From Escherichia coli (lineage in GTDB: Bacteria > Pseudomonadota > Gammaproteobacteria > Enterobacterales > Enterobacteriaceae): 64,000 nucleotides of DNA. Under the pieces are notes generated by a model. It was not told the origin of the DNA. It did not search any database and saw only the letters and a program-made list of their open reading frames with translations. The position numbers and the translations under genes are program-made. Location: assembly GCF_016026235.1 (NCBI RefSeq), contig NZ_CP065613.1; one strand, written 5' to 3'. This document shows positions 10,474 through 52,839 of the stretch, piece after piece; the stretch's first letter is position 1; each line of letters begins with the position of its first letter.

Positions 10474-11523
10474 TTATTCCCTGATTCGGATGGTGATGGC
10501 GGGCGGTACTTTCGGCTGACCAATAAAGCTGGTTCTACCGAGGCGGGAGCTGGCCGGATCGCCAAGGCGCATCCCTTTAGCCTGCTGTGGTGCCAGGCAC
10601 AGCCGTAAATCCCAAGCAAACTGGTCGCGCAGAATAAAGGAAAGGAACATGGTCAGAGGCAGGTGATTTTCGCCATCGGGTAAAAATGAGAGATAACGCT
10701 CCCGCGACAGGTTGCCAATCTGCAACAGAAATTTTCCGCTGCGATCCGGCACCCGTGCGCCGAGGGTAAAATTAACGCCAAGTATGGAGCGTCCCGGAAT
10801 ATGTCCAGCCGTTTTTCCTTTCGGATTACGTACACCAAGCCGGTTCTGGTGTGCCGGATCAATGGCGACTTTACGCAGTTGCCAGCGTTCAATGGTGACA
10901 TCCGGCAAATCAAAACAGTGCGACACCAGATTACAGATAACCTCCGGCGCGCGGCCTGGTGTTGCCAGAATTCCGGCGTAAGCCAGCATTTTGCTGTGGT
11001 TAATGGCAAGCCTGTCGCGCACGCTCTGATTACCCAGCCCGACCAGCGCGTACATGCGCTGTGAAAAGGTGTCAGTGCCGCCATTACGAAAGCAGATGTA
11101 GTAGCGGTATTTGCGCCAGGCATGATAGGCAAACTGTGTCCAGCGGTGGCTGAACAGATCGAGAAATTCTTTAAGGCCGTCTTCGTTCTGTGCGGACTCC
11201 TGCGCCATCTGATCCAGATAATAGCCCGGTAGCGGCGACTGGCTGCCGGAAAAACCAAGGAACCGGGTTTGCAGTACATACTGTCCGTTCTGGCTACGGG
11301 AAAGCGCACTCAGGTCCGTACCCGGAAAACCGATACTGGCGTCAGAGCTGAAACGCACGATCTCCCGGGCAGGCTCGGTACGCAGGGAAATATCCTGGCC
11401 CGGAGCGCCATACCGACGGTACAGCGCCTCCATCAGCACATAGAAATTGCAGTTGCGCACATCCGCCGATAACGGCGGTTTTACCGCTATATAAGGGCGT
11501 GCTGACCCATTTTCTCCTGCCAT
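10474..11523 (-). CDS. tssG: TssG baseplate protein
   Basis: 349 aa; follows tssF in conserved tssE-tssF-tssG order. Confidence 0.7.
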   Translation of the reverse strand: MAGENGSARPYIAVKPPLSADVRNCNFYVLMEALYRRYGAPGQDISLRTEPAREIVRFSSDASIGFPGTDLSALSRSQNGQYVLQTRFLGFSGSQSPLPGYYLDQMAQESAQNEDGLKEFLDLFSHRWTQFAYHAWRKYRYYICFRNGGTDTFSQRMYALVGLGNQSVRDRLAINHSKMLAYAGILATPGRAPEVICNLVSHCFDLPDVTIERWQLRKVAIDPAHQNRLGVRNPKGKTAGHIPGRSILGVNFTLGARVPDRSGKFLLQIGNLSRERYLSFLPDGENHLPLTMFLSFILRDQFAWDLRLCLAPQQAKGMRLGDPASSRLGRTSFIGQPKVPPAITIRIRE

Positions 11524-13347
11524 TCCCAGGCCTCCTGACTTTCCGTGTTGATAATTTTCAGACAGTGGTACGAATTGATGCTGGCGTAGAGAGCAAAAAA
11601 GTGCGAGAGCACTGTACCAAGAAGATAAATTTCACCTTCGCAGATAAATGGATCGGGACGTATCCACAGCGTGGTCGCCAGCCCGCGAACCGGCACGCCT
11701 TTAAACAACCTGTCAACAGGTTTGGTTTCGAGTTTTTCTATGGCATCCAGTTTCTGGCGCGACAGTCTGGCCCGCTGCGGATGGTGAGCGCCTGGCAGGT
11801 CGAAGGTCCGCAGGATCTGGATCAGTGTCTCCCTGTCCAGCAGGGAGAGGTAGTTCAGGTTCATCGCGGAAATCAGCGACCAGTGCATGTCAGCCGTCCG
11901 TGACTGGCCAGAGCGGCTGCGTTGGGCGTGTGACATTATGAAATGAGGCCACCGCCGGGTTTTTGTTGACGGCCACGCAGATATCGCCGATATGCAGCCG
12001 AGCAGGGATCATACGGTTGGTACAGATTAATGACGTGGTGATCACATCATCATTAAACCGTGAGCTGTCCGGAATGCTGCCGTCCGCATGGACAAAGGCG
12101 ATACTATGTTCAAGCCCGCGGTGAAACAGGGATGTTTTAGTCCGGTGATGCCAGTAGACGACTTCCCGCTGGCGGCTGTACTCCATCTGGTGCTGGAAAC
12201 TTTCAAATTCGGGCCAGACACGCGCCTGGCTGCCAGGGTTGGATTCAGTACCTGAAACTTTGACTTTGCTGGTGACTGTGCTTATCTGAAAAATGTCATA
12301 AGCGTCGGGATGCCGGTGGCTGGCGCGCAGCGGGTATTCCGCTATCCGTCCATCAGGCCTGACGGGTTCCGCATAATGCGTAAACAGGTTAATGGCTGGC
12401 GTACAGTGCAGACGCAGTGAGTCCTGGCGTAGCTTGATGTCGGCAGGTAACGGGCGGTTAAAGTGCAGGCGCAGCGTAAACGCGCTGACCGAGAAATCGT
12501 CCGGTAGTGGCGCAACATCGCGCAGATGGAAAAAAAAGAAGGCTTCGGGATAGCAGAAATACTCCTGGAGTACCCGATAGCCGCTGTGGACATTTTTCGG
12601 CCACGGTAGCAGGGCGTCCTGGTTTTCAAATCCGGCGGCCTCCAGCCACAGATCCGGCAGCGGCAGGCGGTACTCTCCGGCAATCAGTTCCGCATCCATC
12701 AGGCATTCGCAAAACCACAGATAAAGCTGGTGTCGGGTATAATCGTCTTCATTACCCAGCCAGAACGTTATTTTGTTCAGGTCAAGCATGGCGGGGGAGA
12801 CATTGTTATCTGCGGTAAAACTGATATCTATGATGCCTTCTTTCAGGCTGCTGGCGTTGCGGGTGTCGAGAATGCGCAGTGGTTGCAGCCAGATATCGCG
12901 CGCCAGCGTGAAATGACAGGCTACGGAAGAAACGATTTTATCATGATTGTCAGACAGCACCTTCTGAGCAGCCAGGGCGGACTTTTCTGAGCGGCTTCTG
13001 ATCAGTTCATTACGGCAGACTTGAACAGGGACTTTTAACTGATCGGTTTTGGGTTCATAGGCAATAACCGTCATGGCCGGAACTGGGCGTAAATAGTTTG
13101 CCCACAGCATACGGATTAGCCCATGGGTGAATTCGGGGAATTCGTCCTCAAGTTTCTGACGCAGGCTACCGGACATAAAGGCAAAGGCTTCCATCAGGCG
13201 CTCCACGTCCGGATCACCCTCTTTCTCGGCCAGAAAGTGGGCCAGATGTGGTTTTTCCTGCGCCAGCAGTTTGCCAAGCTGGCGAAGATAATCCAGCTCT
13301 TCGCGGTAGTAACGTTCTTCAAAAGCCACAGAGATCACTCCACACAA
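11487..13347 (-). CDS. tssF: TssF baseplate protein, apparently frameshifted (two overlapping ORFs 11890..13347 and 11487..11936)
   Basis: The 485 aa and 149 aa ORFs together give about 620 aa, the normal TssF size; the C-terminal piece carries the conserved TssF C-terminus (NLNYLSLLDRETL...). Frames differ by one nucleotide within 11890-11950. Confidence 0.6.
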
Positions 13348-13760
13348 TAGCGTTGATGATTGTCCAGCAAAATGTCAAATTCAAACACTCCCCAGGTTTC
13401 GCTGACATCGACCGTAGCCACAATATGAAAACGTAGTTCCACAGGGGCGTATTCATCCGGTGCCGCAGCCGTAACAACAACATCGGTAATACGAGGTTCG
13501 TAATGTAAAATGCACTGGCTAATGGACTTACGGATTTCTCGTCTGAAATCGCTGGAGGCCAGCGATTCATCATTTAAATCAGTAATCCCCAGCTCTGGTG
13601 AGCCATAACAACTGCCGGAGCGGGTATTCAGGACCTGTTGCAGGTTACGTCTGATGGAACGTATCAGTGCTTCTTTTGGATTCTGGTATGAAGGCGGGTT
13701 GGCCGCCTCACGGATACGTTCAAAAAGACTGCTGGTTGGCCCTGAATCCCGTCTTTGCAT
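13335..13760 (-). CDS. tssE: TssE (gp25-like) baseplate protein
   Basis: 141 aa; gp25/lysozyme-like family size and position after tssC. Confidence 0.75.
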   Translation of the reverse strand: MQRRDSGPTSSLFERIREAANPPSYQNPKEALIRSIRRNLQQVLNTRSGSCYGSPELGITDLNDESLASSDFRREIRKSISQCILHYEPRITDVVVTAAAPDEYAPVELRFHIVATVDVSETWGVFEFDILLDNHQRYCVE

Positions 13761-13764
13761 CTGA

Positions 13765-15249
13765 TTATTCCTTATCCAGTCGTCCGACCAGACTCAGGTC
13801 GAAACTGGCACCCATGTATTTAAAATGCGGTCTGACAGAAATCGCGACCTGGTACCAGCCTGGCTCACCATCCACATCAAGTACCTCGATCTTCGCCTGA
13901 CGTAATGGCCGGTGGCTGCGGACTTCGGCAGGCGGATTCTCCTGGTCGGCCACATACTGGCGAATCCAGGTGTTCAGCTCGCGCTCCAGGTCACTGCGTT
14001 CTTTCCATGAGCCAAGCTGTTCGCGCTGAATTACCTTGATGTAATGCGCTAACCTACTGATAACAAATAAGTATGGCAGCTGGGTGCCGAGTTTATAGTT
14101 GGTCTCCGCAGCCTTGCCTTCGGGGGTTTTGGGGAATGTTTTGGGTTTCTGCACCGAGTTGGCCGAGAAAAAGCACGCATTATCAGACCCTTTACGCATG
14201 GTCAGTGTGATAAAGCCTTCTTCCGCCAGCTCATACTCTCTCCGGTCAGTGATCAACACTTCAGTCGGAATTTTTGCCTGCATTTGCCCCATGGATTCAT
14301 ACAGATGCACCGGGAGGTCTTTGACTGCGCCGCCGCTGGAAGGGCCAATGATATTGGGACACCAGCGATATTTAGCAAAACTTTCAGCCAGGTTCGCAGC
14401 TAGTAAAAACGAGGTGTTCCCCCACAAATAAGACTCGTGACTCTGGCTGACGTCTTCATGGTAACGGAAGGTCCTGGCTGGGTTCTCATCCGGCGAGTAA
14501 GGGTGACGCAGCAGGAACCGGGGGGCGGTCAGCCCCAGGTAGCGTGAATCTTCTGATTCACGCAAGGCACGCCAGCGGGAATAGGCCGGGCCTTCAAAGA
14601 TGGCTCCTGGTTCTTTAATCCCCGGTAACTCTGTCCATGAGTCCAGACCGAAAAATTCGGATGATACTGATGAGAGGAACGGGCTGTGCGCCATCGCACT
14701 GACCTGGCTGATATATTTCAGCAACTTCATATCCGGCGTGGTGTTCTTAAAGGCAAAGTTGCCGATTACCGCCGCCACTGGCTCACCGCCAAATTGTCCG
14801 TAACCGCTTGAATATACATGTTTGTAATATGCAGACTGCGTGATTTCAGGTGCAAATTCGAAATCATCCAGCAGTTCTTCCTGAGTGACATTCAGGAAAT
14901 GGACCTTGATGTTTTCCCGTGTATCCGCGCGTTCAACCAGCAGCTTCAGCGAGCGCAGCAGGGATTCCAGTTCCTGAAACTCCGGGGCGTGAATAATGGC
15001 ATCCATCTGCCTGCTGGTTCGGGCATCAATATCAGCAATCATGGCGTCAACGGCCAGGATATTGATAGGTTCAGCGCTACTGTCACCCTGTAACATGGCG
15101 GCAATAAAGGCGCTCACGCCCTGGCGGGTGATATCGTAGCTTTCTGATTTAGGCTGGACGCGTGTTTGCGCCATGATTTCATCAAGCAGAGATGGGGGCG
15201 CGGCGGTTTGCGACGCGCTGACGGGAGCAATATCTTCCTTTACTGACAT
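13765..15249 (-). CDS. tssC: TssC (VipB) sheath large subunit
   Basis: 494 aa, highly conserved sheath protein sequence. Confidence 0.9.
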   Translation of the reverse strand: MSVKEDIAPVSASQTAAPPSLLDEIMAQTRVQPKSESYDITRQGVSAFIAAMLQGDSSAEPINILAVDAMIADIDARTSRQMDAIIHAPEFQELESLLRSLKLLVERADTRENIKVHFLNVTQEELLDDFEFAPEITQSAYYKHVYSSGYGQFGGEPVAAVIGNFAFKNTTPDMKLLKYISQVSAMAHSPFLSSVSSEFFGLDSWTELPGIKEPGAIFEGPAYSRWRALRESEDSRYLGLTAPRFLLRHPYSPDENPARTFRYHEDVSQSHESYLWGNTSFLLAANLAESFAKYRWCPNIIGPSSGGAVKDLPVHLYESMGQMQAKIPTEVLITDRREYELAEEGFITLTMRKGSDNACFFSANSVQKPKTFPKTPEGKAAETNYKLGTQLPYLFVISRLAHYIKVIQREQLGSWKERSDLERELNTWIRQYVADQENPPAEVRSHRPLRQAKIEVLDVDGEPGWYQVAISVRPHFKYMGASFDLSLVGRLDKE

Positions 15250-15271: not shown

Positions 15272-15775
15272 TTATTTCTGAACGGCGATACCCAGTTCTT
15301 GGATCAGCTGCTCGCGGCTGTCTTCGTTTTCCAGTAGCGCCTGAAGTTGTGCGCGGAAGGCCGGAATATTGCCTAGTGGAGACTTAAGTGCGACCAGAGC
15401 TTCACGCAATTCGAGAAGACGTTTTATTTCTGGTACCTGGCTGGCAATATGGTCCGGAGAAAGGTCATCCATAGATTTGACTTTCAGGTTGACGTACATT
15501 TGCTCATTGGGAGCGTCACTGAGTTCAGCCGGAACAACAAACTCCCGTTCAATGTCAGCTTCTGAAATGACTGCGTTGAGGTTATAGCGGTTGATAGCAA
15601 TGGCAGTTCGCTCGTCCAACGGCGTGTTATCTGGTTTCCCTTTCAGATTGCCGGTGATCAATAAATTCAGCGGCAATTCGATATCAGCAGCCACCCCATC
15701 AACTTTTGGTGTATACCGAACGCTGATTCTTTCTTTCGGCGCGACACTGCCGCCATTGTTGTTCATTTTGCTCAT
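15272..15775 (-). CDS. tssB: TssB (VipA) sheath small subunit
   Basis: 167 aa; conserved TssB sequence, immediately upstream of tssC. Confidence 0.85.
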   Translation of the reverse strand: MSKMNNNGGSVAPKERISVRYTPKVDGVAADIELPLNLLITGNLKGKPDNTPLDERTAIAINRYNLNAVISEADIEREFVVPAELSDAPNEQMYVNLKVKSMDDLSPDHIASQVPEIKRLLELREALVALKSPLGNIPAFRAQLQALLENEDSREQLIQELGIAVQK

Positions 15776-16476
15776 AAAAATGTTCCCGTTCAGGCCATGA
15801 GCACAGCATTTTCGTACTGCATAAAAATACCGAAGATACCGTTTCAGTGGCAGTTAGATAATGTAACCTTCCTTCTGTTGTGATCAGTATTCTACTCATG
15901 AAATAAAATATTAAAAGAACTATTTATATTTTAGAAAGAGATGTATTCTTCCTTGCTAATATATTATAGTGAAATAAATTTTGGTATTTATAGACTTGGT
16001 GAATATGATTTTACGGTCAATAAAATACCATAATATATTGATTTATATGCATTTATTAAATTGATTAATAAGTTTTATGTATGGTTTTATCAATTAATTA
16101 ATTGCTAGCAATACATCATAAGGAATTCCTTTAAGGAATGTCTTAATTGCGTGCTGGAACGATGGCGGAGTAAGTGTCGTAATAATTTGTTTTTGACGCG
16201 GCTGTGGATTTTTATGGGGGGGAGATACGTTATGGATAATTGTGCTGTTGAAGTTGATATATTTTTAGCTTATGTGACCGTGTTCTGAAATTGACTAAAA
16301 ATATATTTAAACACCATAAAAGAGTTTTTCAGTAGGTGCTAATTACGTGTGCCTGTAACTCGAATAAAGAAAAGGGTGTGGTTCCTGATGTGAGCCGCAT
16401 CACACTCTAACCCGTCGGGGATTAACGACGGGTTGTTCGTAAAACAGCAGTTGATAATTTCACAAGGAGTTCATAA
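15776..16476. promoter_or_regulatory. AT-rich divergent intergenic region between tssB and hcp (candidate promoters / nucleoid-protein silencing region)
   Basis: About 700 bp, extremely AT-rich with phased A/T tracts, no ORF of 60 aa or more; flanked by divergent tssB operon and hcp. Confidence 0.4.
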
Positions 16477-16995
16477 ATGCCAACCCCATGTTACATTTCA
16501 ATTACAGGTCAGACCCAGGGGAACATCACTGCCGGTGCTTTCACCGCAGATTCTGTCGGCAATATCTACGTGCAGGGACACGAAGATGAAATGCTGGTGC
16601 AGGAGTTTCTGCATAACGTTACTGTTCCAACCGATCCACAGTCTGGTCAACCTTCCGGGCAGCGCGCGCACAAACCGTTCATTTTCACCGTGGCGCTGAA
16701 CAAAGCCGTTCCGCTGCTGTACAACGCGCTGGCCTCCGGTGAAATGCTGCCGAAAGTGGAGCTGCACTGGTGGCGTACTTCAGTTGAAGGCAAGCAGGAG
16801 CACTACTTCACCACACGTCTTACTGACGCGACGATTGTGGACATGAACCTGCACATGCCGCACTGCCAGGACCCTGCACAGCGTGAGTTTACGCAATTGC
16901 TCGCAGTATCACTGGCATACCGTAAGGTTGAGTGGGAGCACATCAAATCCGGTACTTCTGGTGCCGATGACTGGCGTGCACCGCTGGAAGCATAA
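16477..16995 (+). CDS. hcp: Hcp (TssD) T6SS tube protein
   Basis: 172 aa; MPTPCYISITGQTQGNITAGAFTADSVGNIYVQGHEDEMLVQEF typical Hcp. Confidence 0.9.
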   Translation: MPTPCYISITGQTQGNITAGAFTADSVGNIYVQGHEDEMLVQEFLHNVTVPTDPQSGQPSGQRAHKPFIFTVALNKAVPLLYNALASGEMLPKVELHWWRTSVEGKQEHYFTTRLTDATIVDMNLHMPHCQDPAQREFTQLLAVSLAYRKVEWEHIKSGTSGADDWRAPLEA

Positions 16996-17215: not shown

Positions 17216-19615
17216 ATGTCCTTAAAAGGTCTGCGCTTTACGCTGGAGGCTGACGGCCAGGAGCCGGACACCTTTGCAGTGGTGAATTTCAGGTTAATCC
17301 AGAACCAGTCTTATCCGTTTGTGATGAGTGTGGATGTTGCCAGCGACTCTTTTATGCAGACGGCGGAGATGCTGCTGGAGAAGAAGGCGACGCTGACCAT
17401 CTGGCAGGGCGTCATCCCGCTGCGTTATGTTACCGGCGTGGTGGCGGGCTTTGGCATGCAGGAGAACAATGGCTGGCAGATGCGTTACCACCTGCGTATT
17501 GAGCCGCCGTTATGGCGGTGCGGGCTGCGGCAGAATTTCCGTATCTTCCAGCAGCAGGATATCCGGACGATATCGGCCACGTTACTGAACGAGAACGGCG
17601 TCACGGAGTGGACGCCGCTGTTTTATGAGGACCATCCGGCGCGGGAGTTCTGTGTGCAGTACGGGGAGTCGGACCTGGCGTTTCTGTCCCGGCTGTGGGC
17701 GGAGGAGGGAATTTTCTTCTTTGAGCGGTTTGCGGCGGACAGTCCGGAGCAGAAGCTGACGCTGTGCGACGATGTGGCGGGGCTGTCACAGGCGGGAGAG
17801 CTTCCGTTTAACCCGGACACATCGGCAGGAGCGGAGACAGAGTGTGTCAGTATGTTCCGTTATGAGGCGTATGTCCGCCCGTCGTCGGTGCAGAGCCAGG
17901 ATTACACGTTTAAGGTGCCGGACTGGCCGGGGATGTATGAGCAGCAGGGTGAGAACCTGAACGGACAGCTGGCGCAGTACGAGATATTTGATTATCCGGG
18001 AAGGTTCAAGGATGAGCAGCACGGCAAGGATTTCACGCTGTACCAGATGGAGAGCCTGCGCAGTGATGCGGAAAAGGCCACAGGGCAGAGTAATTCGCCG
18101 AGGCTGTGGCCGGGAACGCGGTTTACGCTGACGGGGCATCCGCAGAAGATGCTGAACCGTGAATGGCAGGTGGTACAGAGCATTCTGTCAGGAAACCAGC
18201 CGCAGGCGCTGCACGGCAGCCAGGGAAAGGGAACCACACTGGGAAATCAGTTAGAGGTGATACCGGCGGACCGGACGTGGCGTCCACGGCTGCAAAGCAA
18301 ACCGAAGGTGGACGGGCCACAGAGCGCCATTGTCACCGGGCCTGCGGGAGAGGAAATCTTCTGCGATGAACATGGCCGGGTACGGGTGAAGTTCCACTGG
18401 GACCGTTATCACGGGATGACGGAGGCGAGTTCATGCTGGGTGCGGGTATCGCAGGCGTGGGCGGGGCCGGGGTTTGGTAACCTGGCGATACCGCGGGTGG
18501 GCCAGGAGGTGATTGTTGATTTTCTGAACGGAGACCCGGACCAGCCGCTGGTCATGGGCCGGACGCACCATGAGGACAACCGTTCGCCGGGCGACCTGCC
18601 GGGAACGAAGACGCAGATGACCATCCGGTCGAAGACCTATAAAGGAAGCGGATTTAACGAACTGCGCTTCGAGGACGCCACCAGTAATGAGCAGGTGTAT
18701 ATCCATGCGCAGAAGAACATGGATACGGAGGTGCTCAACGACCGGACAACGGATGTGAAACATGACCATACGGAAACCATCGGTAACGACCAGAAGATAA
18801 CGGTGGTGAAGGGTCAGACGGTTCAGGTCGGTACAAAAAAAGAGGGGGGCCACGACCAGAGTATCACGGTGGCGAACGACCGGCGTATCACGGTACGTAA
18901 TGACCAGACTCTGAAGGTGACGAATGACCGGACGGTGAGCGTGAGTCACGATGACGGTCTGTACGTCAGAAACGACCGTAAAGTGACGGTGGAAGGGAAG
19001 CAGGAGCATAAGACGACGGGGAACCATATCAGTCTGGTGGAGGGGAAACACAGCCTGGTGGTGAAGGGGGACCTGGCGGAGAAGGTGAGTGGCGCGCTGG
19101 GGATAAAAGTGGACGGGGATATCGTGCTGGAGAGCAGCAGCCGGATAAGCCTGAAGGTGGGTGGCTCGTTTATCGTCATTCAGCCGGGCGGAGTGGATAT
19201 TGCCGGGCCGAAGATAAACCTGAACGGTGGGGGCAGTGCGGGGACACCGGTGGGGACGATGCAGCCGGCGGTGCTGGAGGCTCCGGAGGATGAGAGCAGT
19301 GATGATGGCAGTGATGACTCCGGAGAGGATAGTGGCAATCCCGCAGGGAGTGACGGAGGAGGTGATGGCGGTGACGATGAAGATGATCCTGAAAAATATA
19401 CCCTCCAGTTCCATTTTACGGACGATGACGGGATACCGTATTCAGAGACGCAGTATATTGCCTTTTTTGAGGATGGCACACAGACGCGTGGTGAAACAGA
19501 CAGAGAGGGATATACAGAAATATTTTATACAGATACAGCACAGGAAATTAAAGTCCAATTGTTATTTTCGGATGCTTTTTATATTGAGCCGGAGGGGCAT
19601 TATGGCAGGGAATAA
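17216..19615 (+). CDS. vgrG: VgrG (TssI) spike protein with acidic C-terminal extension
   Basis: 799 aa; gp27/gp5-like body, repeated RNDxT/V-type beta-helix motifs, C-terminal acidic linker (DDGSDDSGED...GGDDEDD) plus about 70 aa tail. Confidence 0.9.
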   Translation: MSLKGLRFTLEADGQEPDTFAVVNFRLIQNQSYPFVMSVDVASDSFMQTAEMLLEKKATLTIWQGVIPLRYVTGVVAGFGMQENNGWQMRYHLRIEPPLWRCGLRQNFRIFQQQDIRTISATLLNENGVTEWTPLFYEDHPAREFCVQYGESDLAFLSRLWAEEGIFFFERFAADSPEQKLTLCDDVAGLSQAGELPFNPDTSAGAETECVSMFRYEAYVRPSSVQSQDYTFKVPDWPGMYEQQGENLNGQLAQYEIFDYPGRFKDEQHGKDFTLYQMESLRSDAEKATGQSNSPRLWPGTRFTLTGHPQKMLNREWQVVQSILSGNQPQALHGSQGKGTTLGNQLEVIPADRTWRPRLQSKPKVDGPQSAIVTGPAGEEIFCDEHGRVRVKFHWDRYHGMTEASSCWVRVSQAWAGPGFGNLAIPRVGQEVIVDFLNGDPDQPLVMGRTHHEDNRSPGDLPGTKTQMTIRSKTYKGSGFNELRFEDATSNEQVYIHAQKNMDTEVLNDRTTDVKHDHTETIGNDQKITVVKGQTVQVGTKKEGGHDQSITVANDRRITVRNDQTLKVTNDRTVSVSHDDGLYVRNDRKVTVEGKQEHKTTGNHISLVEGKHSLVVKGDLAEKVSGALGIKVDGDIVLESSSRISLKVGGSFIVIQPGGVDIAGPKINLNGGGSAGTPVGTMQPAVLEAPEDESSDDGSDDSGEDSGNPAGSDGGGDGGDDEDDPEKYTLQFHFTDDDGIPYSETQYIAFFEDGTQTRGETDREGYTEIFYTDTAQEIKVQLLFSDAFYIEPEGHYGRE

Positions 19616-20405
19616 TAATACTAGTGGGACTTCACAACCCGAGTCGCAAGTATGTGTAGTACCGCAAAAAATTACAAATAAATTTAAAATAATGATGAGT
19701 AAGGCTTGTAAAGCACAGAAAATGGTTTTATTGAAAAGAGCAGATGATATTATGTCATGGGAGGGGGAACAACAACGAGATTTTATTAAAGTTTTTGGCC
19801 TTAAAGGCGAGGACATTATAAAAATCAGAAAGGTTGGGGAAGATACTGGGAAACGAATGCAAGCGAGACTATTCATAATGGATGGCATCAGACGAATAAT
19901 GACGATTGCAAATGGTTTGACGATCGAAAGCTATAAAGATTATACGAACTGCAATGAATTTGCTGCTTTTATTAGTCCACATCTTGATCCTCCTTACATT
20001 GTAAATATCGGAGCGCATTTTGAATACAGACATGGTATAAAACAGTCGGTTACAGGTAGAGACTCTCATGTAAGTACACTTTGCCATGAAATGTCCCATA
20101 TATTTTGGTATTGGGGTGACAATCAAAAAGGTGGTATGTGGACTCAGGATTATACGGGTATTAATAAGTTCGCAACAAGTAATAAGGATGAAGTTAGCTA
20201 TGAGAAACATGTTTCAGTGGCTAATGATCTGGTTACATTGCGTAAAGATCAGTTATTTGAGAATGCATATAATGTTGAAAGATATTTTTATATAAAATTA
20301 AATGATGAAGATATTGAAGCTCAAGATGAGAATATGTTAGCAAAAAAAGTAGAGGATAAAATAAAAGAGATAGAAAAATGTTTTGATGAGTTGATGGGGA
20401 AATAA
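19602..20405 (+). CDS. Putative VgrG-associated effector, zincin-like metallopeptidase candidate (HExxH)
   Basis: ATG at 19602 overlaps vgrG stop by 14 nt (track ORF 19227..20405 begins inside vgrG). AT-rich; motif STLCHEMSHIFWYWGD...WTQDYTG (HExxH plus a downstream Asp). Confidence 0.45.
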   Translation: MAGNNNTSGTSQPESQVCVVPQKITNKFKIMMSKACKAQKMVLLKRADDIMSWEGEQQRDFIKVFGLKGEDIIKIRKVGEDTGKRMQARLFIMDGIRRIMTIANGLTIESYKDYTNCNEFAAFISPHLDPPYIVNIGAHFEYRHGIKQSVTGRDSHVSTLCHEMSHIFWYWGDNQKGGMWTQDYTGINKFATSNKDEVSYEKHVSVANDLVTLRKDQLFENAYNVERYFYIKLNDEDIEAQDENMLAKKVEDKIKEIEKCFDELMGK

Positions 20406-20468
20406 GATGAAGAGGTTGGCTTTCTATAATCTAAATTATGTTGTACTGATGGTTTTTTTCTTTGTTTT

Positions 20469-21155
20469 TTGCCATTATCTATTGCAATTGCAATAGATAA
20501 TGAGAATCTTTTTGTAAAAAAATACAGATTCGGTTTTGAACGAAGAAGTGACAATGGGAAACCAATTATTTATCTTAGCCATAATTTAGCGCCAGAGGAA
20601 AATATAAGTAATGAATTAACAAATGATGTTGTTGTTAAATTGGTGGTTAAGCCACATGCTGAAAATATTTTAGCTACTATAACTTTTTATAACAGTAGTA
20701 CTAAATCGTATTTTCTCCCCAGAATATATTATCCAAAGAACTTCCAAAAAGGAAATGGAGATGTATTTGATGCTTTGTGTGATGACGAATTCTTGATTAC
20801 ATCAGGAAATATTAGCTTAGACTATCTAGGAGGCTTTTGTCCCTTTGAGCTTGATTTGAATTTGAGCCGATGGGTGGAAATTACGGCAGGTAAAAAAATA
20901 TCTTTTGATGTAAAATTGAATGATATGCATTCATTTCTCCCCAGTTTAAATAATTATCATATAAAAACATTAAACTACAAACTTGTTAGGAGAAAATGGT
21001 TTGTATTAAAATCAATTAATGAAACATTCCTCTCTATTTTGATGAAAAGATACTCATGTAATGAATATGATTTTAGAGCTATATCATTTAGTGGAGAGGG
21101 ATGTGATAATTATGAATTTGATAAAAATACGTTTTTTTTGTTAATCAAATATTAG
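20469..21155 (+). CDS. Hypothetical protein, immunity candidate for the upstream effector
   Basis: AT-rich 228 aa ORF directly downstream; begins with TTG in the track; a 29-codon ATG-initiated hydrophobic peptide (20407..20496) lies in another frame just upstream across a T-run. Confidence 0.3.
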   Translation: MPLSIAIAIDNENLFVKKYRFGFERRSDNGKPIIYLSHNLAPEENISNELTNDVVVKLVVKPHAENILATITFYNSSTKSYFLPRIYYPKNFQKGNGDVFDALCDDEFLITSGNISLDYLGGFCPFELDLNLSRWVEITAGKKISFDVKLNDMHSFLPSLNNYHIKTLNYKLVRRKWFVLKSINETFLSILMKRYSCNEYDFRAISFSGEGCDNYEFDKNTFFLLIKY

Positions 21156-21394
21156 ATAAAGATGATGAGCAACATTCTGTTCATATTAGGTCTAATGAAT
21201 TTTCCATCAATATCGATGGAAGCTTGGTAAAGCAACCTTATTGATTAAAATGTATCGCAGGTTTTATTTTCTGTAATGCTGGTGCATGTGCGTAAATATT
21301 TCTTAAGAGCCGGAAACACCTCTTCCGCCTTTATCGACGATAAACCTACCGCCAGAACCGGTGATGCCATTGACTGCGGTGGCGTGGTTAAAGG

Positions 21395-27228: not shown

Positions 27229-27732
27229 ATGGTAGATATTGTCGAGGCCGATAAAACGGATATTTATTTCATTCAGGAGAGTGTTTATGGCAAAATCGGG
27301 TTGCCAGCTTTTGGTAATACAATAGGACCATCCGCACAGCAAGTTGTTAAAAAGGTATTCGCTGTCGTTAAAGAACGAGATAAGACACATGCAAAACAGA
27401 GATTATTGTTGGAATATAATGGTAACAAACTCTGGATGAATGCTATTGATGGCAGTGAAGCTATCCTACCAACAGAATTTTCTAAGCGATACGAACTTTC
27501 ATTATTCAATACTACTAATTTTGGAGAAGATCCTTTTCCTGATGTTAATTTATATAATAATATGAAATCAAGTTTTTTTGTAAGGTTTGGTGGAACATCC
27601 CATCCCGAGGCTTGGGCTATTTATAATGCAAGTACGAAAGAGGTTAAATATATAGAAACTGCAAGAGAAATTGATAAAATATTCAGTGATTTTAACTTGA
27701 GTGGTACATTGCCAATTCACATTGGTCAATGA
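27229..27732 (+). CDS. Hypothetical protein (AT-rich orphan ORF)
   Basis: 167 aa ORF in a very AT-rich segment between H-repeat fragments; no recognisable motif. Confidence 0.3.
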   Translation: MVDIVEADKTDIYFIQESVYGKIGLPAFGNTIGPSAQQVVKKVFAVVKERDKTHAKQRLLLEYNGNKLWMNAIDGSEAILPTEFSKRYELSLFNTTNFGEDPFPDVNLYNNMKSSFFVRFGGTSHPEAWAIYNASTKEVKYIETAREIDKIFSDFNLSGTLPIHIGQ

Positions 27733-51868: not shown

Positions 51869-52264
51869 ATGAAAACGGTCATCACCTTCGGCACCTTCGA
51901 TGTGTTTCATGTCGGTCATCTGCGCCTTTTACAACGCGCCCGCAAGCTGGGCGAACGGCTGCTGGTCGGCGTATTGTCCGACGCCCTGAACATCGCCAAA
52001 AAGGGCAGGGCACCGGTTTACCATCAGGATGACCGCATGGCGATCATCGCCGGGCTGGCGTGCGTGGATGGCGTATTTCTGGAGGAATCGCTGGCGCAGA
52101 AAGCGGAGTATTTGCGGGGGTACAGTGCGGATATTTTAGTGATGGGGGATGACTGGGCAGGGAAGTTTGACGATTTCTCGTGTGTCTGTGAGGTGGTCTA
52201 TTTTCCCCGTACGCCGTCGGTATCGACGACGGGGATCATTGAGGTGATTAGGGGGAATGCATGA
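51869..52264 (+). CDS. Glycerol-3-phosphate cytidylyltransferase (TagD/TarD-like)
   Basis: 131 aa; VITFGTFDVFHVGHLRLL (HxGH motif), VMGDDWAGKFD and EVVYFPRTPSVSTTGI closely parallel Bacillus TagD as I recall it. Confidence 0.8.
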   Translation: MKTVITFGTFDVFHVGHLRLLQRARKLGERLLVGVLSDALNIAKKGRAPVYHQDDRMAIIAGLACVDGVFLEESLAQKAEYLRGYSADILVMGDDWAGKFDDFSCVCEVVYFPRTPSVSTTGIIEVIRGNA

Positions 52265-52275
52265 CAAAATAAAAT

Positions 52276-52839
52276 TTATTTTTGAGCCTCAAAGTAATTG
52301 AAGAAATATGTGTTATATTTATTTGTGTCTTTTTGTTTTATTCCATTTTTGCTAAAATAACTGTTTTTGTTTGTTGATATCTCTATTTCGATAGATTTTT
52401 CTTTTTTCATATATTCAATTTTGCATTTGTAATATCTAATAACGATATTTTCCCCATCCTTTATAACTTCAAAAATATTTGCATCATGCAGTTTGTCTAA
52501 TTTTCTATTCAAAAAGAAAGCGTCTGTTACCAGCGTTTCAACCTTGTTATTATAAGAAAAAAAGAAGCTCGCTGCACCCATATCGTTGCTTTCAAAAACT
52601 TGCTGTATATTCCCTTTAAAAAGGATGGTTTGCACTATAGTTGTTGGGGAAGAGTTTTTCTTACTATGGTTACTATAAGTTTTCATATTAATAACCATAT
52701 CCTTAAGTATGTCATTTTCCCCATATACTTCAAAGGCAGGTAGGTTTTTATTATAATCTGGATACACTATTATCATGAATAATAGAATCAAGCTTCTCAA
52801 TATAATACTAATCATTTGATTTATTCTTCCGGTGATCAT
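52276..52839 (-). CDS. Hypothetical membrane/secreted protein (AT-rich insert, gene 2)
   Basis: 187 aa, N-terminal hydrophobic segment (MISIILRSLILLFMIIVY), Asn/Lys-rich; 32-nt overlap with upstream gene. Confidence 0.4.
   Translation of the reverse strand: MITGRINQMISIILRSLILLFMIIVYPDYNKNLPAFEVYGENDILKDMVINMKTYSNHSKKNSSPTTIVQTILFKGNIQQVFESNDMGAASFFFSYNNKVETLVTDAFFLNRKLDKLHDANIFEVIKDGENIVIRYYKCKIEYMKKEKSIEIEISTNKNSYFSKNGIKQKDTNKYNTYFFNYFEAQK

What the first reader, a model, noticed from the sequence alone, without database searches (positions are those of the whole stretch)
15776..16476. 700-bp AT-rich divergent control region for the T6SS
The tssB operon and hcp-vgrG are transcribed divergently from a long, extremely AT-rich spacer with phased A/T tracts and short inverted repeats. 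Such regions are typical targets of nucleoid-protein silencing and may hold the main regulatory inputs for the whole cluster.
Basis: inference. Interest (0 to 1): 0.35.

Follow-up and report, generated by a model that had tools for sequence, protein, structure and literature searches.

The report
Known T6SS-2 two-way promoter region
This 701-bp AT-rich gap is the already-studied two-way control region of the E. coli type VI secretion system 2, silenced by H-NS; the only new observation is that both genes have conserved leaders, and the hcp leader folds into two RNA hairpins.

Summary
The coordinates are exact. 15776-16476 is the 701-bp gap between divergent tssB (minus strand) and hcp (plus strand) of an E. 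coli T6SS-2 cluster. Published APEC "T6SS2" hcp2B-promoter primers map onto it.

- **Confirmed:** GC is 33% against 52% for the window. A 235-bp core has 20% GC and includes the lowest-GC 200-nt stretch of the whole 64 kb. Inverted repeats exceed chance.
- **Not confirmed:** helical phasing of A/T tracts and predicted curvature do not exceed shuffled controls.
- **Interpretation:** supported, and already published. In APEC, hns deletion derepresses both operons and CpxR-P binds the hcp2B promoter fragment. The homologous EHEC and Shigella sonnei regions are described as H-NS-repressed bidirectional promoters.
- **New here:** the long AT-rich gap is kept across Enterobacterales (487-1150 bp). 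The middle evolves fast and both ends are conserved. The tssB side has an invariant TAnnAT -10 and a ~107-nt leader. The hcp leader has two hairpins with strong covariation, and the second carries GGA in its loop 47 nt upstream of a near-invariant ACAAGGAG Shine-Dalgarno. This layout suggests CsrA-type post-transcriptional control.

Ordinary as a kind of feature, with a modest new detail.

The parts
15272..15775 (-). tssB (vipA), first gene of the structural operon
   Evidence: Pfam T6SS_VipA, E = 1.2e-44. Annotated tssB in matching genomes.
15776..15882 (-). Predicted tssB 5' leader, about 107 nt. It holds conserved stems GCCA(15851-15848)/TGGC(15797-15794) and ACGGTAT(15842-15836)/ATGCTGT(15809-15803), and a GGGA Shine-Dalgarno at 15787-15784.
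   Evidence: Mean identity is 0.6-0.73 across 10 other lineages whose TssB proteins are only 54-80% identical. The RNAalifold structure is 95.8% paired, but only one pair shows compensatory change. The transcription start is inferred, not mapped.
15889..15894 (-). PtssB -10 hexamer TAGAAT (the TAnnAT positions are invariant)
   Evidence: T, A, A and T are invariant columns in 13 lineages. A GATC at 15882-15885 overlaps the predicted start.
15911..15916 (-). PtssB -35-like TTTTAA, with a 16-nt spacer to the -10
   Evidence: The block 'TTTTAAAAT' is conserved. It matches only 3 of 6 consensus positions, so this is inference.
15918..15955 (-). Conserved block upstream of PtssB (sense strand AGAATAC..CTCTTT..ATAAAAAG); a possible activator or UP site
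   Evidence: Alignments; conservation 0.5-0.7. An 8-bp inverted repeat, 15904-15911/15926-15933, flanks the -35.
15881..16115 (.). AT-rich core (GC 0.20); the proposed H-NS nucleation zone
   Evidence: Composition. Of the six H-NS-motif-like 10-mers (at most 2 mismatches) in the gap, four lie in this core; the whole window has 80. Window versus UTI89 divergence is 13.8% for the 15960-16120 part, against 4-8% at third codon positions of the flanking genes.
16120..16145 (.). Palindrome AAGGAATTCCTT (16120-16131) followed by the conserved island TTTAAGGAATGTCTTA (16130-16145)
   Evidence: The island reaches 0.60 conservation in an otherwise unalignable centre. Direct and inverted repeats D6 and I12. 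Function unknown.
16257..16306 (.). Perfect 12-bp inverted repeat ATATATTTTTAG / CTAAAAATATAT with a 26-nt spacer
   Evidence: a repeat of at least 12 bp occurs in 0.3% of shuffles. Both arms are present in the window and in all five other E. coli sequences of this lineage tested; the right arm is altered in E. whittamii.
16267..16290 (+). Segment required for CpxR-P binding in APEC, placed here by homology
   Evidence: The APEC EMSA probe maps to 16267-16490. The non-shifting deletion probe starts at 16291. The window has GTGAC where APEC has GTAAT.
16291..16320 (+). Candidate hcp promoter: TTGACT (16291-16296), 18-nt spacer, CATAAA (16315-16320)
   Evidence: It lies inside the fragment that drove lacZ in APEC (16267-16501). 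The zone 16260-16345 diverges only 1.2-3.5% within the lineage, against 13.6-16.4% for 16120-16260 in the three more diverged strains. The A-rich TAAAA is partly conserved across lineages. The transcription start is not mapped.
16377..16399 (+). hcp leader hairpin HP1 (16377-16384 pairs with 16392-16399)
   Evidence: RNAalifold. 93% of cells are paired, and 4 of 7 pairs show compensatory change.
16389..16404 (.). Perfect CRP core TGTGA-N6-TCACA, overlapping the 3' half of HP1
   Evidence: It is present in all E. coli sequences of this lineage. It is absent in EHEC and the other lineages. Function untested.
16410..16433 (+). hcp leader hairpin HP2 (ACCCGTC / GACGGGT), with GGA at 16419-16421 in the loop
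   Evidence: 98.9% of cells are paired, and 4 of 7 pairs show compensatory change. GGA is in the loop in 11 of 13 lineages.
16462..16469 (+). ACAAGGAG: the Shine-Dalgarno, which also resembles a CsrA site (ACA-RGGA)
   Evidence: The columns are nearly invariant or invariant. GGA sits at -11 or -12 in 13 of 13 lineages, 47 nt from the loop GGA in the window.
16477..16995 (+). hcp (hcp2B in APEC nomenclature), first gene of the hcp-vgrG operon
   Evidence: Pfam T6SS_HCP, E = 1.5e-32. The hcp2B RT-PCR primers match exactly.

Best explanation
The gap is the bidirectional regulatory region of the E. coli T6SS-2 cluster (APEC 'T6SS2'). Two back-to-back sigma-70-type promoters sit roughly 400 bp apart. 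One drives the tssB structural operon leftwards and the other drives hcp-vgrG rightwards.

The very AT-rich, fast-evolving DNA between and over the promoters is a platform on which H-NS polymerises and keeps both promoters off in the laboratory. Phosphorylated CpxR binds just upstream of the hcp promoter and raises hcp-operon transcription.

Each promoter is followed by a long conserved leader, about 107 nt for tssB and probably about 150 nt for hcp. The hcp leader folds into two hairpins on the RNA.

My inference is that the hcp leader adds a second, post-transcriptional gate. Most likely a CsrA dimer bridges the GGA in the second hairpin loop and the ACAAGGAG at the ribosome-binding site. 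For the tssB leader, which has a GGGA at its ribosome-binding site but little structural evidence, the same idea is weaker.

Shown here or in the literature: gene identities, composition, conservation pattern, the invariant -10, RNA covariation, derepression on hns deletion, and the CpxR-P band shift. Inferred: transcription start positions, the extent of H-NS binding on this allele, and the CsrA mechanism.
For: Identity of the locus.

Published genetics on this locus type: hns deletion derepresses both operons, Fur has no effect, and hcp2B-xmtV is one operon (PMC5874247). CpxR-P EMSA and a lacZ fusion are in PMC6534853.

Homologous EHEC and S. sonnei regions are treated as H-NS-repressed bidirectional promoters.

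The architecture is conserved. Every one of the 35 loci fetched from other species (genome scan) that holds enough flank has hcp divergent from tssB. The gap is 487-1150 bp in Enterobacterales, and its GC is 8.5-20 points below the flanks.

Conservation has two ends. The leaders and promoter zones are conserved, while the centre diverges 14-16% within the lineage, against 0.8-3.5% for the leaders and the hcp promoter zone. This agrees with the published observation that H-NS-bound regulatory intergenic regions evolve faster (PMC4720273).

The TAnnAT -10 for tssB is invariant.

For the hcp leader hairpins, 96.1% of cells are paired, against 35-46% when partners are slid. Eight of 14 pairs show compensatory change, and 0 of 500 shuffles reach the observed values. 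About 38 G.U cells on the hcp-sense strand against 7 other non-pairs indicate an RNA structure rather than a DNA operator.

EHEC data fit a post-transcriptional block: hns deletion raises tssB and hcp3 mRNA but little protein appears, and CsrA is reported to repress hcp3 and tssC.
Against: No transcription start site is mapped for this allele. The hcp promoter assignment is weak: CATAAA with an 18-nt spacer. Other lineages carry a better -10-like element, TATAAT or TACAAT, about 290 nt upstream of hcp.

Promoter-like hexamer pairs are not enriched over shuffles (6 against 4.4 +/- 2.1).

The H-NS evidence for this exact locus is genetic only. Curvature and phasing, often cited for H-NS sites, are not above chance, and no H-NS motif match with fewer than 2 mismatches lies in the gap.

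The window allele differs at 2 nt inside the 24-bp segment needed for CpxR-P binding in APEC.

The tssB leader structure has almost no covariation. Two of 13 lineages lack GGA in the HP2 loop. CsrA regulation of hcp3 is known to me only through a citation.

tssF is frameshifted in this strain, so the region may control a defective machine.
Confidence: 0.85

Rival explanations
1. The hcp-leader hairpins are real RNA elements but act without CsrA. They could be 5' stabilisers against RNase E, an RNase III site, an sRNA/Hfq docking platform, or a thermosensor.
For: Covariation proves only the structure, not the partner. The consensus structure does not sequester the Shine-Dalgarno. The stretch between HP2 and the Shine-Dalgarno is moderately conserved and unpaired. 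The leader is more stable than shuffles (z = -2.37). In EHEC a hairpin 3' of hcp3 is reported to protect the mRNA.
Against: GGA is in the HP2 loop in 11 of 13 lineages. The ACA before AGGA at the Shine-Dalgarno is nearly invariant, which a plain ribosome-binding site does not need. CsrA repression of hcp3 is reported in EHEC.
Confidence: 0.3
2. The centre of the gap is only neutral, AT-rich filler left from horizontal transfer. Regulation resides entirely in the two short promoter-proximal parts, and H-NS silencing is a generic effect of base composition.
For: The centre is poorly conserved between lineages (0.13-0.5) and diverges 14-16% within the lineage, faster than third codon positions. 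Phasing and curvature do not exceed chance.
Against: The gap length stays at 645-740 bp across the Escherichia, Citrobacter, Lelliottia and Buttiauxella lineages, although the TssB proteins fall to 54% identity. Conserved islands persist in the centre (16130-16145, and the AATATTTATTCATGAT block in other lineages). A 12-bp perfect repeat is unlikely by chance.
Confidence: 0.25
3. The gap hides an unannotated gene, either a small protein or a small RNA. One candidate is the 18-codon ORF 16233-16289 (MDNCAVEVDIFLAYVTVF) behind a GGGGGGGAG Shine-Dalgarno.
For: The ORF and a Shine-Dalgarno-like run are intact in the window, UTI89 and E. whittamii. Other lineages have an ATG within the conserved TTCATGAT block, followed by short ORFs.
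Against: Between the window and UTI89, my own reading of the alignment gives four non-synonymous changes to one synonymous. ORF lengths run from 11 to 57 codons with frame changes between lineages, and EHEC has no ATG at the equivalent place. Rfam finds nothing, and no terminator-like site lies inside the gap.
Confidence: 0.07
4. hcp is driven by a sigma-54 promoter with an enhancer-binding protein, as in Vibrio cholerae (VasH), or by a Fur/Dam switch, as in EAEC sci-1.
For: The gene order of the structural operon resembles the V. cholerae vas cluster.
Against: No GG-N10-GC element lies inside the gap, and no vasH-like gene is in the annotated cluster. The best Fur-box match is 12 of 19, and the gap has a single GATC. 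Fur and iron do not affect T6SS2 in APEC.
Confidence: 0.03

Closest known systems
APEC/ExPEC T6SS2 vipA-hcp2B divergent promoter region (strains DE719 and TW-XM; Ma et al. 2018, Yi et al. 2019)
   Same: It is the same locus. Published primers map with 0-2 mismatches. UTI89 and APEC O1 carry the gap at 91.5-91.6% identity. H-NS represses it, CpxR-P binds the hcp2B promoter fragment, and Fur has no effect.
   Different: The window is a different allele. It is 99.7% identical to strain PapM-32-1 and about 8% diverged from the B2-type allele, mostly in the centre. It has two substitutions inside the segment needed for CpxR-P binding. tssF is frameshifted here.
EHEC O157:H7 T6SS-2 tssB(z0264)-hcp3 bidirectional promoter 't6sP' (Wan 2017; Kim 2022; Vazquez-Lopez 2026), and the same region in Shigella sonnei
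   Same: Synteny is the same and the gap length is almost the same (696 against 701 bp), as is the GC (0.33). They share the tssB -10, the tssB leader blocks, the two hcp-leader hairpins and the ACAAGGAG Shine-Dalgarno. H-NS represses it, and reporters are low in wild type.
   Different: Global identity is only about 58%, and BLASTN does not detect the match. TssB is 54% identical, although Hcp is 94% identical. The CRP core, the 12-bp repeat and the CpxR segment of the window lineage are absent. EHEC has a -10-like TACAAT about 290 nt upstream of hcp that is degenerate in the window.
H-NS silencing of the Salmonella SPI-6 T6SS (Brunet et al. 2015) and of other horizontally acquired islands
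   Same: The logic is the same: an AT-rich promoter region of an acquired T6SS that is silent in the laboratory and derepressed without H-NS (cited).
   Different: It is a different T6SS cluster, and no sequence relationship was tested. Here there are two divergent promoters with long structured leaders.
RsmA/CsrA control of T6SS mRNAs in Pseudomonas aeruginosa (Allsopp et al. 2017) and classical CsrA leaders
   Same: One GGA sits in a hairpin loop and another overlaps the Shine-Dalgarno. They are 45-49 nt apart in most lineages and 37 nt in Buttiauxella (47 nt in the window), within the range a CsrA dimer can bridge (range from my own knowledge; motifs).
   Different: No binding data exist for this leader. 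Two lineages lack the loop GGA. There is no sequence homology to Pseudomonas leaders.
Vibrio cholerae hcp promoters (sigma-54 / VasH) and the EAEC sci-1 Fur/Dam switch
   Same: They control the same kind of genes.
   Different: There is no -24/-12 element, no VasH gene, no Fur box and no Fur-overlapping GATC.

Membership tests
E. coli T6SS-2 (APEC 'T6SS2') tssB/hcp2B bidirectional regulatory region | Lies between divergently oriented tssB and hcp of a T6SS-2 cluster (tssB-tssC-tssE-tssF-tssG-tagH-tssJ-tssK-tssL-clpV-vasI-tssA-tssM-vasL-hcp on one side, hcp-vgrG cargo on the other) | tested here: met
   Pfam on the flanking ORFs; RefSeq annotation of a 99.7%-identical genome.
E. coli T6SS-2 (APEC 'T6SS2') tssB/hcp2B bidirectional regulatory region | Sequence identity with the experimentally studied APEC region | tested here: met
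   Phcp2B, EMSA, hcp2B and vipA primers map with 0-2 mismatches. APEC O1 and UTI89 are 91.5-91.6% identical over 100% of the query.
H-NS-silenced AT-rich regulatory region of acquired DNA | A+T content well above the genome and flanking genes | tested here: met
   GC 0.33 (core 0.20) against 0.52-0.53.
H-NS-silenced AT-rich regulatory region of acquired DNA | Derepression of the flanking operons when hns is deleted | not testable with these tools
   Literature only: APEC TW-XM and EHEC.
H-NS-silenced AT-rich regulatory region of acquired DNA | Direct H-NS occupancy (ChIP, EMSA or footprint) | not testable with these tools
   Stated for EHEC in PMC13141884, citing Kim et al. 2022, which is not held. 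I found no data for this allele.
H-NS-silenced AT-rich regulatory region of acquired DNA | Intrinsic curvature or helically phased A-tracts (a frequent, not obligatory, feature) | tested here: not met
   Periodicity p = 0.06-0.21; predicted curvature equals the shuffles.
H-NS-silenced AT-rich regulatory region of acquired DNA | High-affinity nucleation motif TCGATAAATT | tested here: inconclusive
   Six matches with 2 mismatches and none better. The density is 7-fold above the window average, but that is expected from composition.
CsrA/RsmA-regulated mRNA leader | A GGA motif overlapping the Shine-Dalgarno, ideally in an A(N)GGA context | tested here: met
   ACAAGGAG at 16462-16469; GGA at -11 or -12 in 13 of 13 lineages.
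CsrA/RsmA-regulated mRNA leader | A second GGA presented in a hairpin loop within about 10-63 nt | tested here: met
   The HP2 loop GGA at 16419-16421 is 47 nt upstream. It is present in 11 of 13 lineages, and the stem is supported by covariation.
CsrA/RsmA-regulated mRNA leader | CsrA binds the RNA and changes translation or stability | not testable with these tools
   Only a second-hand report that CsrA represses hcp3 and tssC in EHEC.
CpxR-activated promoter | A CpxR box (GTAAA-N4-8-GTAAA) in the segment shown to be needed for CpxR-P binding | tested here: inconclusive
   The homologous segment is 16267-16290. The window reads GTGAC where APEC reads GTAAT. No match with at most 2 mismatches falls in that segment.
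Sigma-54 / VasH-dependent hcp promoter (V. cholerae type) | A -24 GG / -12 GC element upstream of hcp and an enhancer-binding protein gene in the cluster | tested here: not met
   No GG-N10-GC element inside the gap; no vasH homologue annotated.
Fur/Dam epigenetic switch (EAEC sci-1) | A Fur box overlapping GATC sites at the promoter | tested here: not met
   Best Fur-box match 12 of 19; a single GATC at 15882.
Any curated RNA family (Rfam 15) | A covariance-model match at or near the gathering score | tested here: not met
   Four hits, all far below threshold, to eukaryotic or viral families.

The most novel reading that the evidence does not exclude
The conserved two-hairpin hcp leader (16377-16433, together with ACAAGGAG at 16462-16469) is a previously undescribed cis-regulatory RNA of enterobacterial T6SS-2 clusters. 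It gates Hcp synthesis after transcription, most likely through a CsrA dimer that bridges the HP2 loop GGA and the Shine-Dalgarno GGA. This would explain why removing H-NS raises T6SS-2 mRNA in EHEC but yields little protein, and why this system has resisted activation in the laboratory.
Probability: 0.35. Interest if true: 0.45.

Novelty: already known. Interest (0 to 1): 0.28.

Why it matters
T6SS-2 is present in many pathogenic E. coli (ExPEC, APEC, NMEC, EHEC) and in Shigella sonnei, yet it stays almost silent in the laboratory. This silence has blocked functional study of the system.

That the tssB-hcp gap is its H-NS-repressed two-way promoter is already established, so the finding adds nothing new as stated.

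The comparative map made here is of practical use. It shows which roughly 300 bp are free to vary. It gives a precise prediction for the tssB promoter, from the invariant -10. It also shows that the hcp leader is a structured RNA under selection.

If the leader is a CsrA-type (or similar) gate, then promoter derepression alone cannot switch the system on. Constructs that keep the native leaders would under-report activity.

Tried and rejected
- **Rfam:** an E-value-threshold scan of 15500-16800 gave only sub-threshold eukaryotic and viral hits.
- **Promoter and terminator scans:** simple consensus scans of the gap showed no enrichment over shuffles. No terminator-like site was found in the hcp-vgrG spacer.
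- **Phasing and curvature:** helical phasing of AA/TT and wedge-model curvature do not exceed chance.
- **Other promoter types:** sigma-54, Fur-box and CpxR-box scans found nothing convincing in the gap. The only perfect site found was a CRP core.
- **Hidden coding sequences:** I checked the 45-codon GTG ORF, a TTG-initiated frame, the 18-codon ORF at 16233 and ATG-initiated ORFs in other lineages. Lengths and frames are not conserved, and substitutions are mostly non-synonymous.
- **Extra copies of the hcp leader:** a covariance model of the leader found no further copies in the window. It found no match in Trabulsiella, Xenorhabdus, Serratia or Pasteurellaceae loci.
- **EHEC homology:** BLASTN with the gap did not find the EHEC region, even in distant mode. 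The homology appeared only after the syntenic locus was fetched and aligned.
- **Transcription start data:** Kim et al. 2022 is not held, and the Sy et al. 2020 dRNA-seq supplements are not held.
- **tssB leader structure:** it is compatible with the sequences but has too little covariation to claim.
Full report
**What is there**

The window is E. coli chromosome. ORF 15272-15775(-) is TssB/VipA, 13765-15249(-) is TssC, 13335-13760(-) is TssE, 11890-13347(-) is TssF, 16477-16995(+) is Hcp and 17216-19615(+) is VgrG. The finding's coordinates, 15776-16476, are exactly the 701-bp gap between the tssB and hcp start codons.

The gap occurs at 91-99.7% identity in 552 of 5426 complete E. coli genomes. 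It is always chromosomal and never carries an annotated feature. UTI89 and APEC O1 are among the genomes. In the best match it is the largest intergenic gap in 40.7 kb of a complete T6SS cluster.

Primers published for the APEC "T6SS2" hcp2B promoter, hcp2B and vipA map onto the window with 0-2 mismatches. The locus is therefore the ExPEC/APEC T6SS-2 tssB(vipA)/hcp2B divergent region.

**Checking the observation**

- *AT-richness is real.* GC is 0.331 against 0.521 for the window and 0.534 for the flanks. The core 15881-16115 has GC 0.204 and contains the lowest-GC 200-nt stretch of the whole 64 kb. The two ends have 41-45% GC.
- *Phased A/T tracts are not supported.* Runs of at least 4 A or T are mildly enriched (19 against 13.7 +/- 2.5). 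AA/TT power at 10-11.5 bp is reached by 21% of dinucleotide shuffles for the whole gap and 6% for the core.
- *Predicted curvature is not elevated.* It averages 7.8 degrees per turn, the same as composition-matched shuffles (7.82 +/- 0.74). There is one local peak at 16251-16325.
- *Inverted repeats are real and exceed chance.* They include a perfect 12-bp repeat, 16257-16268/16295-16306 (0.3% of shuffles reach 12 bp), and a 9-bp G+C-rich hairpin, 16409-16417/16426-16434.

**What the literature already shows**

For this locus type (APEC TW-XM), hns deletion raises clpV2, hcp2A and hcp2B. Fur and iron have no effect, 50% duck serum induces, and hcp2B-xmtV is one operon (PMC5874247).

In APEC DE719, cpxR deletion lowers the hcp2B operon. 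A fragment equal to window 16267-16501 drives lacZ. CpxR-P shifts 16267-16490 but not 16291-16490 (PMC6534853).

EHEC carries a syntenic T6SS-2:
- hns deletion raised hcp about 60-fold (PMC5363993).
- The tssB-hcp3 gap is called a bidirectional promoter, "t6sP". H-NS is stated to bind it and it is stated to have several start sites. Both statements cite Kim et al. 2022, which I could not read.
- The hcp3-side t6sP reporter goes from almost null in wild type to clearly detectable in the hns mutant, while the tssB side stays very low. Protein stays scarce even though mRNA rises.
- Replacing the promoter region gives TssB, ClpV and Hcp3 protein.
- The same paper cites a report that CsrA represses hcp3 and tssC.

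S. sonnei has the same region, with low reporter output.

**Comparative anatomy (new here)**

EHEC Sakai has tssB and hcp separated by 696 bp at GC 0.33. Hcp is 94% identical to the window's, TssB is only 54% identical, and the gap is 58% identical, with conserved patches at both ends. A third E. coli lineage (MRY15-117) has a 682-bp gap.

A scan of one genome per species with a TssB alignment returned 38 loci. They come from Escherichia whittamii and E. albertii, Citrobacter, Trabulsiella, Buttiauxella, Lelliottia, Serratia silvae, many Xenorhabdus, and two Pasteurellaceae. Every locus with enough flank (35 of the 38) has hcp divergent from tssB. The gap is 487-1150 bp in Enterobacterales and 53 and 224 bp in the two Pasteurellaceae. 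In Enterobacterales its GC is 8.5-20 points below the flanks.

- *tssB side.* A TAnnAT hexamer is invariant in 13 lineages: window TAGAAT, minus strand 15894-15889. It is preceded by a conserved TTTTAA-like block 16 nt upstream and by further conserved sequence up to about 15955. This places the tssB start near 15881-15883 and gives a leader of about 107 nt. The leader's sequence is better conserved (0.6-0.73) than the TssB protein would predict.
- *tssB leader structure.* A structure is compatible with all sequences (95.8% paired) but rests on a single compensatory pair, so I do not claim it.
- *hcp side.* Conservation runs from about 16346 to the ATG. RNAalifold predicts two hairpins, HP1 (16377-16384/16392-16399) and HP2 (16410-16416/16427-16433).
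- *Support for the hairpins.* On 13 lineages, 96.1% of cells pair, against 35-46% with slid partners. Eight of 14 pairs carry compensatory changes, and no shuffle of 500 reaches the observed values.
- *RNA, not DNA.* G.U pairs on the hcp-sense strand are common, about 38 cells against 7 other non-pairs. The structure is therefore selected in the hcp-sense RNA and not as a DNA operator.
- *GGA motifs.* HP2's loop carries GGA in 11 of 13 lineages. The Shine-Dalgarno context ACAAGGAG is nearly invariant. The two GGAs are 47 nt apart in the window.
- *No other copies, no known family.* A covariance model of this leader finds no other copy in the window and no match in the Trabulsiella, Xenorhabdus or Serratia loci. 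Rfam has no match.

**The centre of the gap**

Within the ExPEC lineage, the window and UTI89 differ as follows:

| Segment | Divergence |
|---|---|
| hcp leader | 0.8% |
| tssB leader | 2.8% |
| hcp promoter zone, 16260-16345 | 3.5% |
| AT core segment, 15960-16120 | 13.8% |
| 16120-16260 | 16.4% |
| Third codon positions of the flanking genes | 4.2-8.5% |

The centre is therefore free to change, and the promoter-proximal parts are constrained. This fits the published observation that H-NS-bound regulatory intergenic regions evolve faster than unbound ones (PMC4720273).

Two small conserved islands persist in the centre:
- TTTAAGGAATrTCT, at window 16130-16145, next to the palindrome AAGGAATTCCTT.
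- AATATTTATTCATGAT in other lineages, which includes TATAAT or TACAAT. It is degenerate in the window lineage.

**Mechanism proposed**

The gap holds two back-to-back sigma-70 promoters about 400 bp apart. H-NS nucleating on the AT-rich DNA silences both. CpxR-P acts as a positive input just upstream of the hcp promoter.

The second layer at the hcp leader is inferred. Most likely a CsrA dimer bridges the HP2 loop GGA and the Shine-Dalgarno. A similar role for the tssB leader is possible but weaker.

Sigma-54/VasH-type and Fur/Dam-type control are rejected by sequence and by the published Fur result. Hidden small genes are unlikely.

**Verdict**

The added value is a conservation map, a precise tssB promoter prediction, and evidence for a structured hcp leader under selection.

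Noticed in passing
window 11490-13329 (minus strand), indel near 11892: tssF is split by a 1-nt insertion relative to the intact 613-aa tssF of E. coli PapM-32-1. Residues 1-479 and 479-613 lie in different frames. The insertion is not in a homopolymer. Either the T6SS-2 baseplate gene is a pseudogene in this strain, or this is a sequencing error.
   Followed up: partly
window 16389-16404 and 16273-16288: A perfect CRP core, TGTGA-N6-TCACA, overlaps the 3' half of hcp-leader hairpin HP1. It occurs only in the ExPEC-type lineage. A second, 8-of-10 CRP-like site falls in the CpxR-required segment, and the window's GTGAC allele improves its match. Neither sits at a canonical distance from any candidate transcription start.
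   Followed up: partly
window 16233-16289 (+): An 18-codon ORF (MDNCAVEVDIFLAYVTVF) lies behind a GGGGGGGAG run. It is intact in the window, UTI89 and E. whittamii, but its substitutions are mostly non-synonymous and EHEC has no equivalent ATG.
   Followed up: partly
window 15776-15800 against other lineages: Next to the tssB Shine-Dalgarno, the ExPEC-type lineage lacks about 10-12 nt that all other lineages carry (..GATAACCTGACGGACTA..). In the window's minimum-free-energy fold, GCUCAU (in the conserved TCATGGCC block) pairs with the AUGAGC start region.
   Followed up: no
window 19500-21200, 27600-27700 and 52240-52340: These are further very AT-rich stretches (GC 0.22-0.30), downstream of vgrG and elsewhere. 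ORF 19227-20405 has no Pfam match. They are probably variable effector/immunity cargo.
   Followed up: no
L002 (EHEC Sakai) 17679-17903, L008 2218-2442: EHEC-type clusters carry an extra 74-codon hypothetical gene between tssB and tssC. It is absent from the window's cluster.
   Followed up: no
L042 (Avibacterium gallinarum), L043 (Rodentibacter rarus): In the two Pasteurellaceae, tssB and hcp are still divergent but only 53 and 224 bp apart. The long spacer is therefore a feature of the enterobacterial branch.
   Followed up: no
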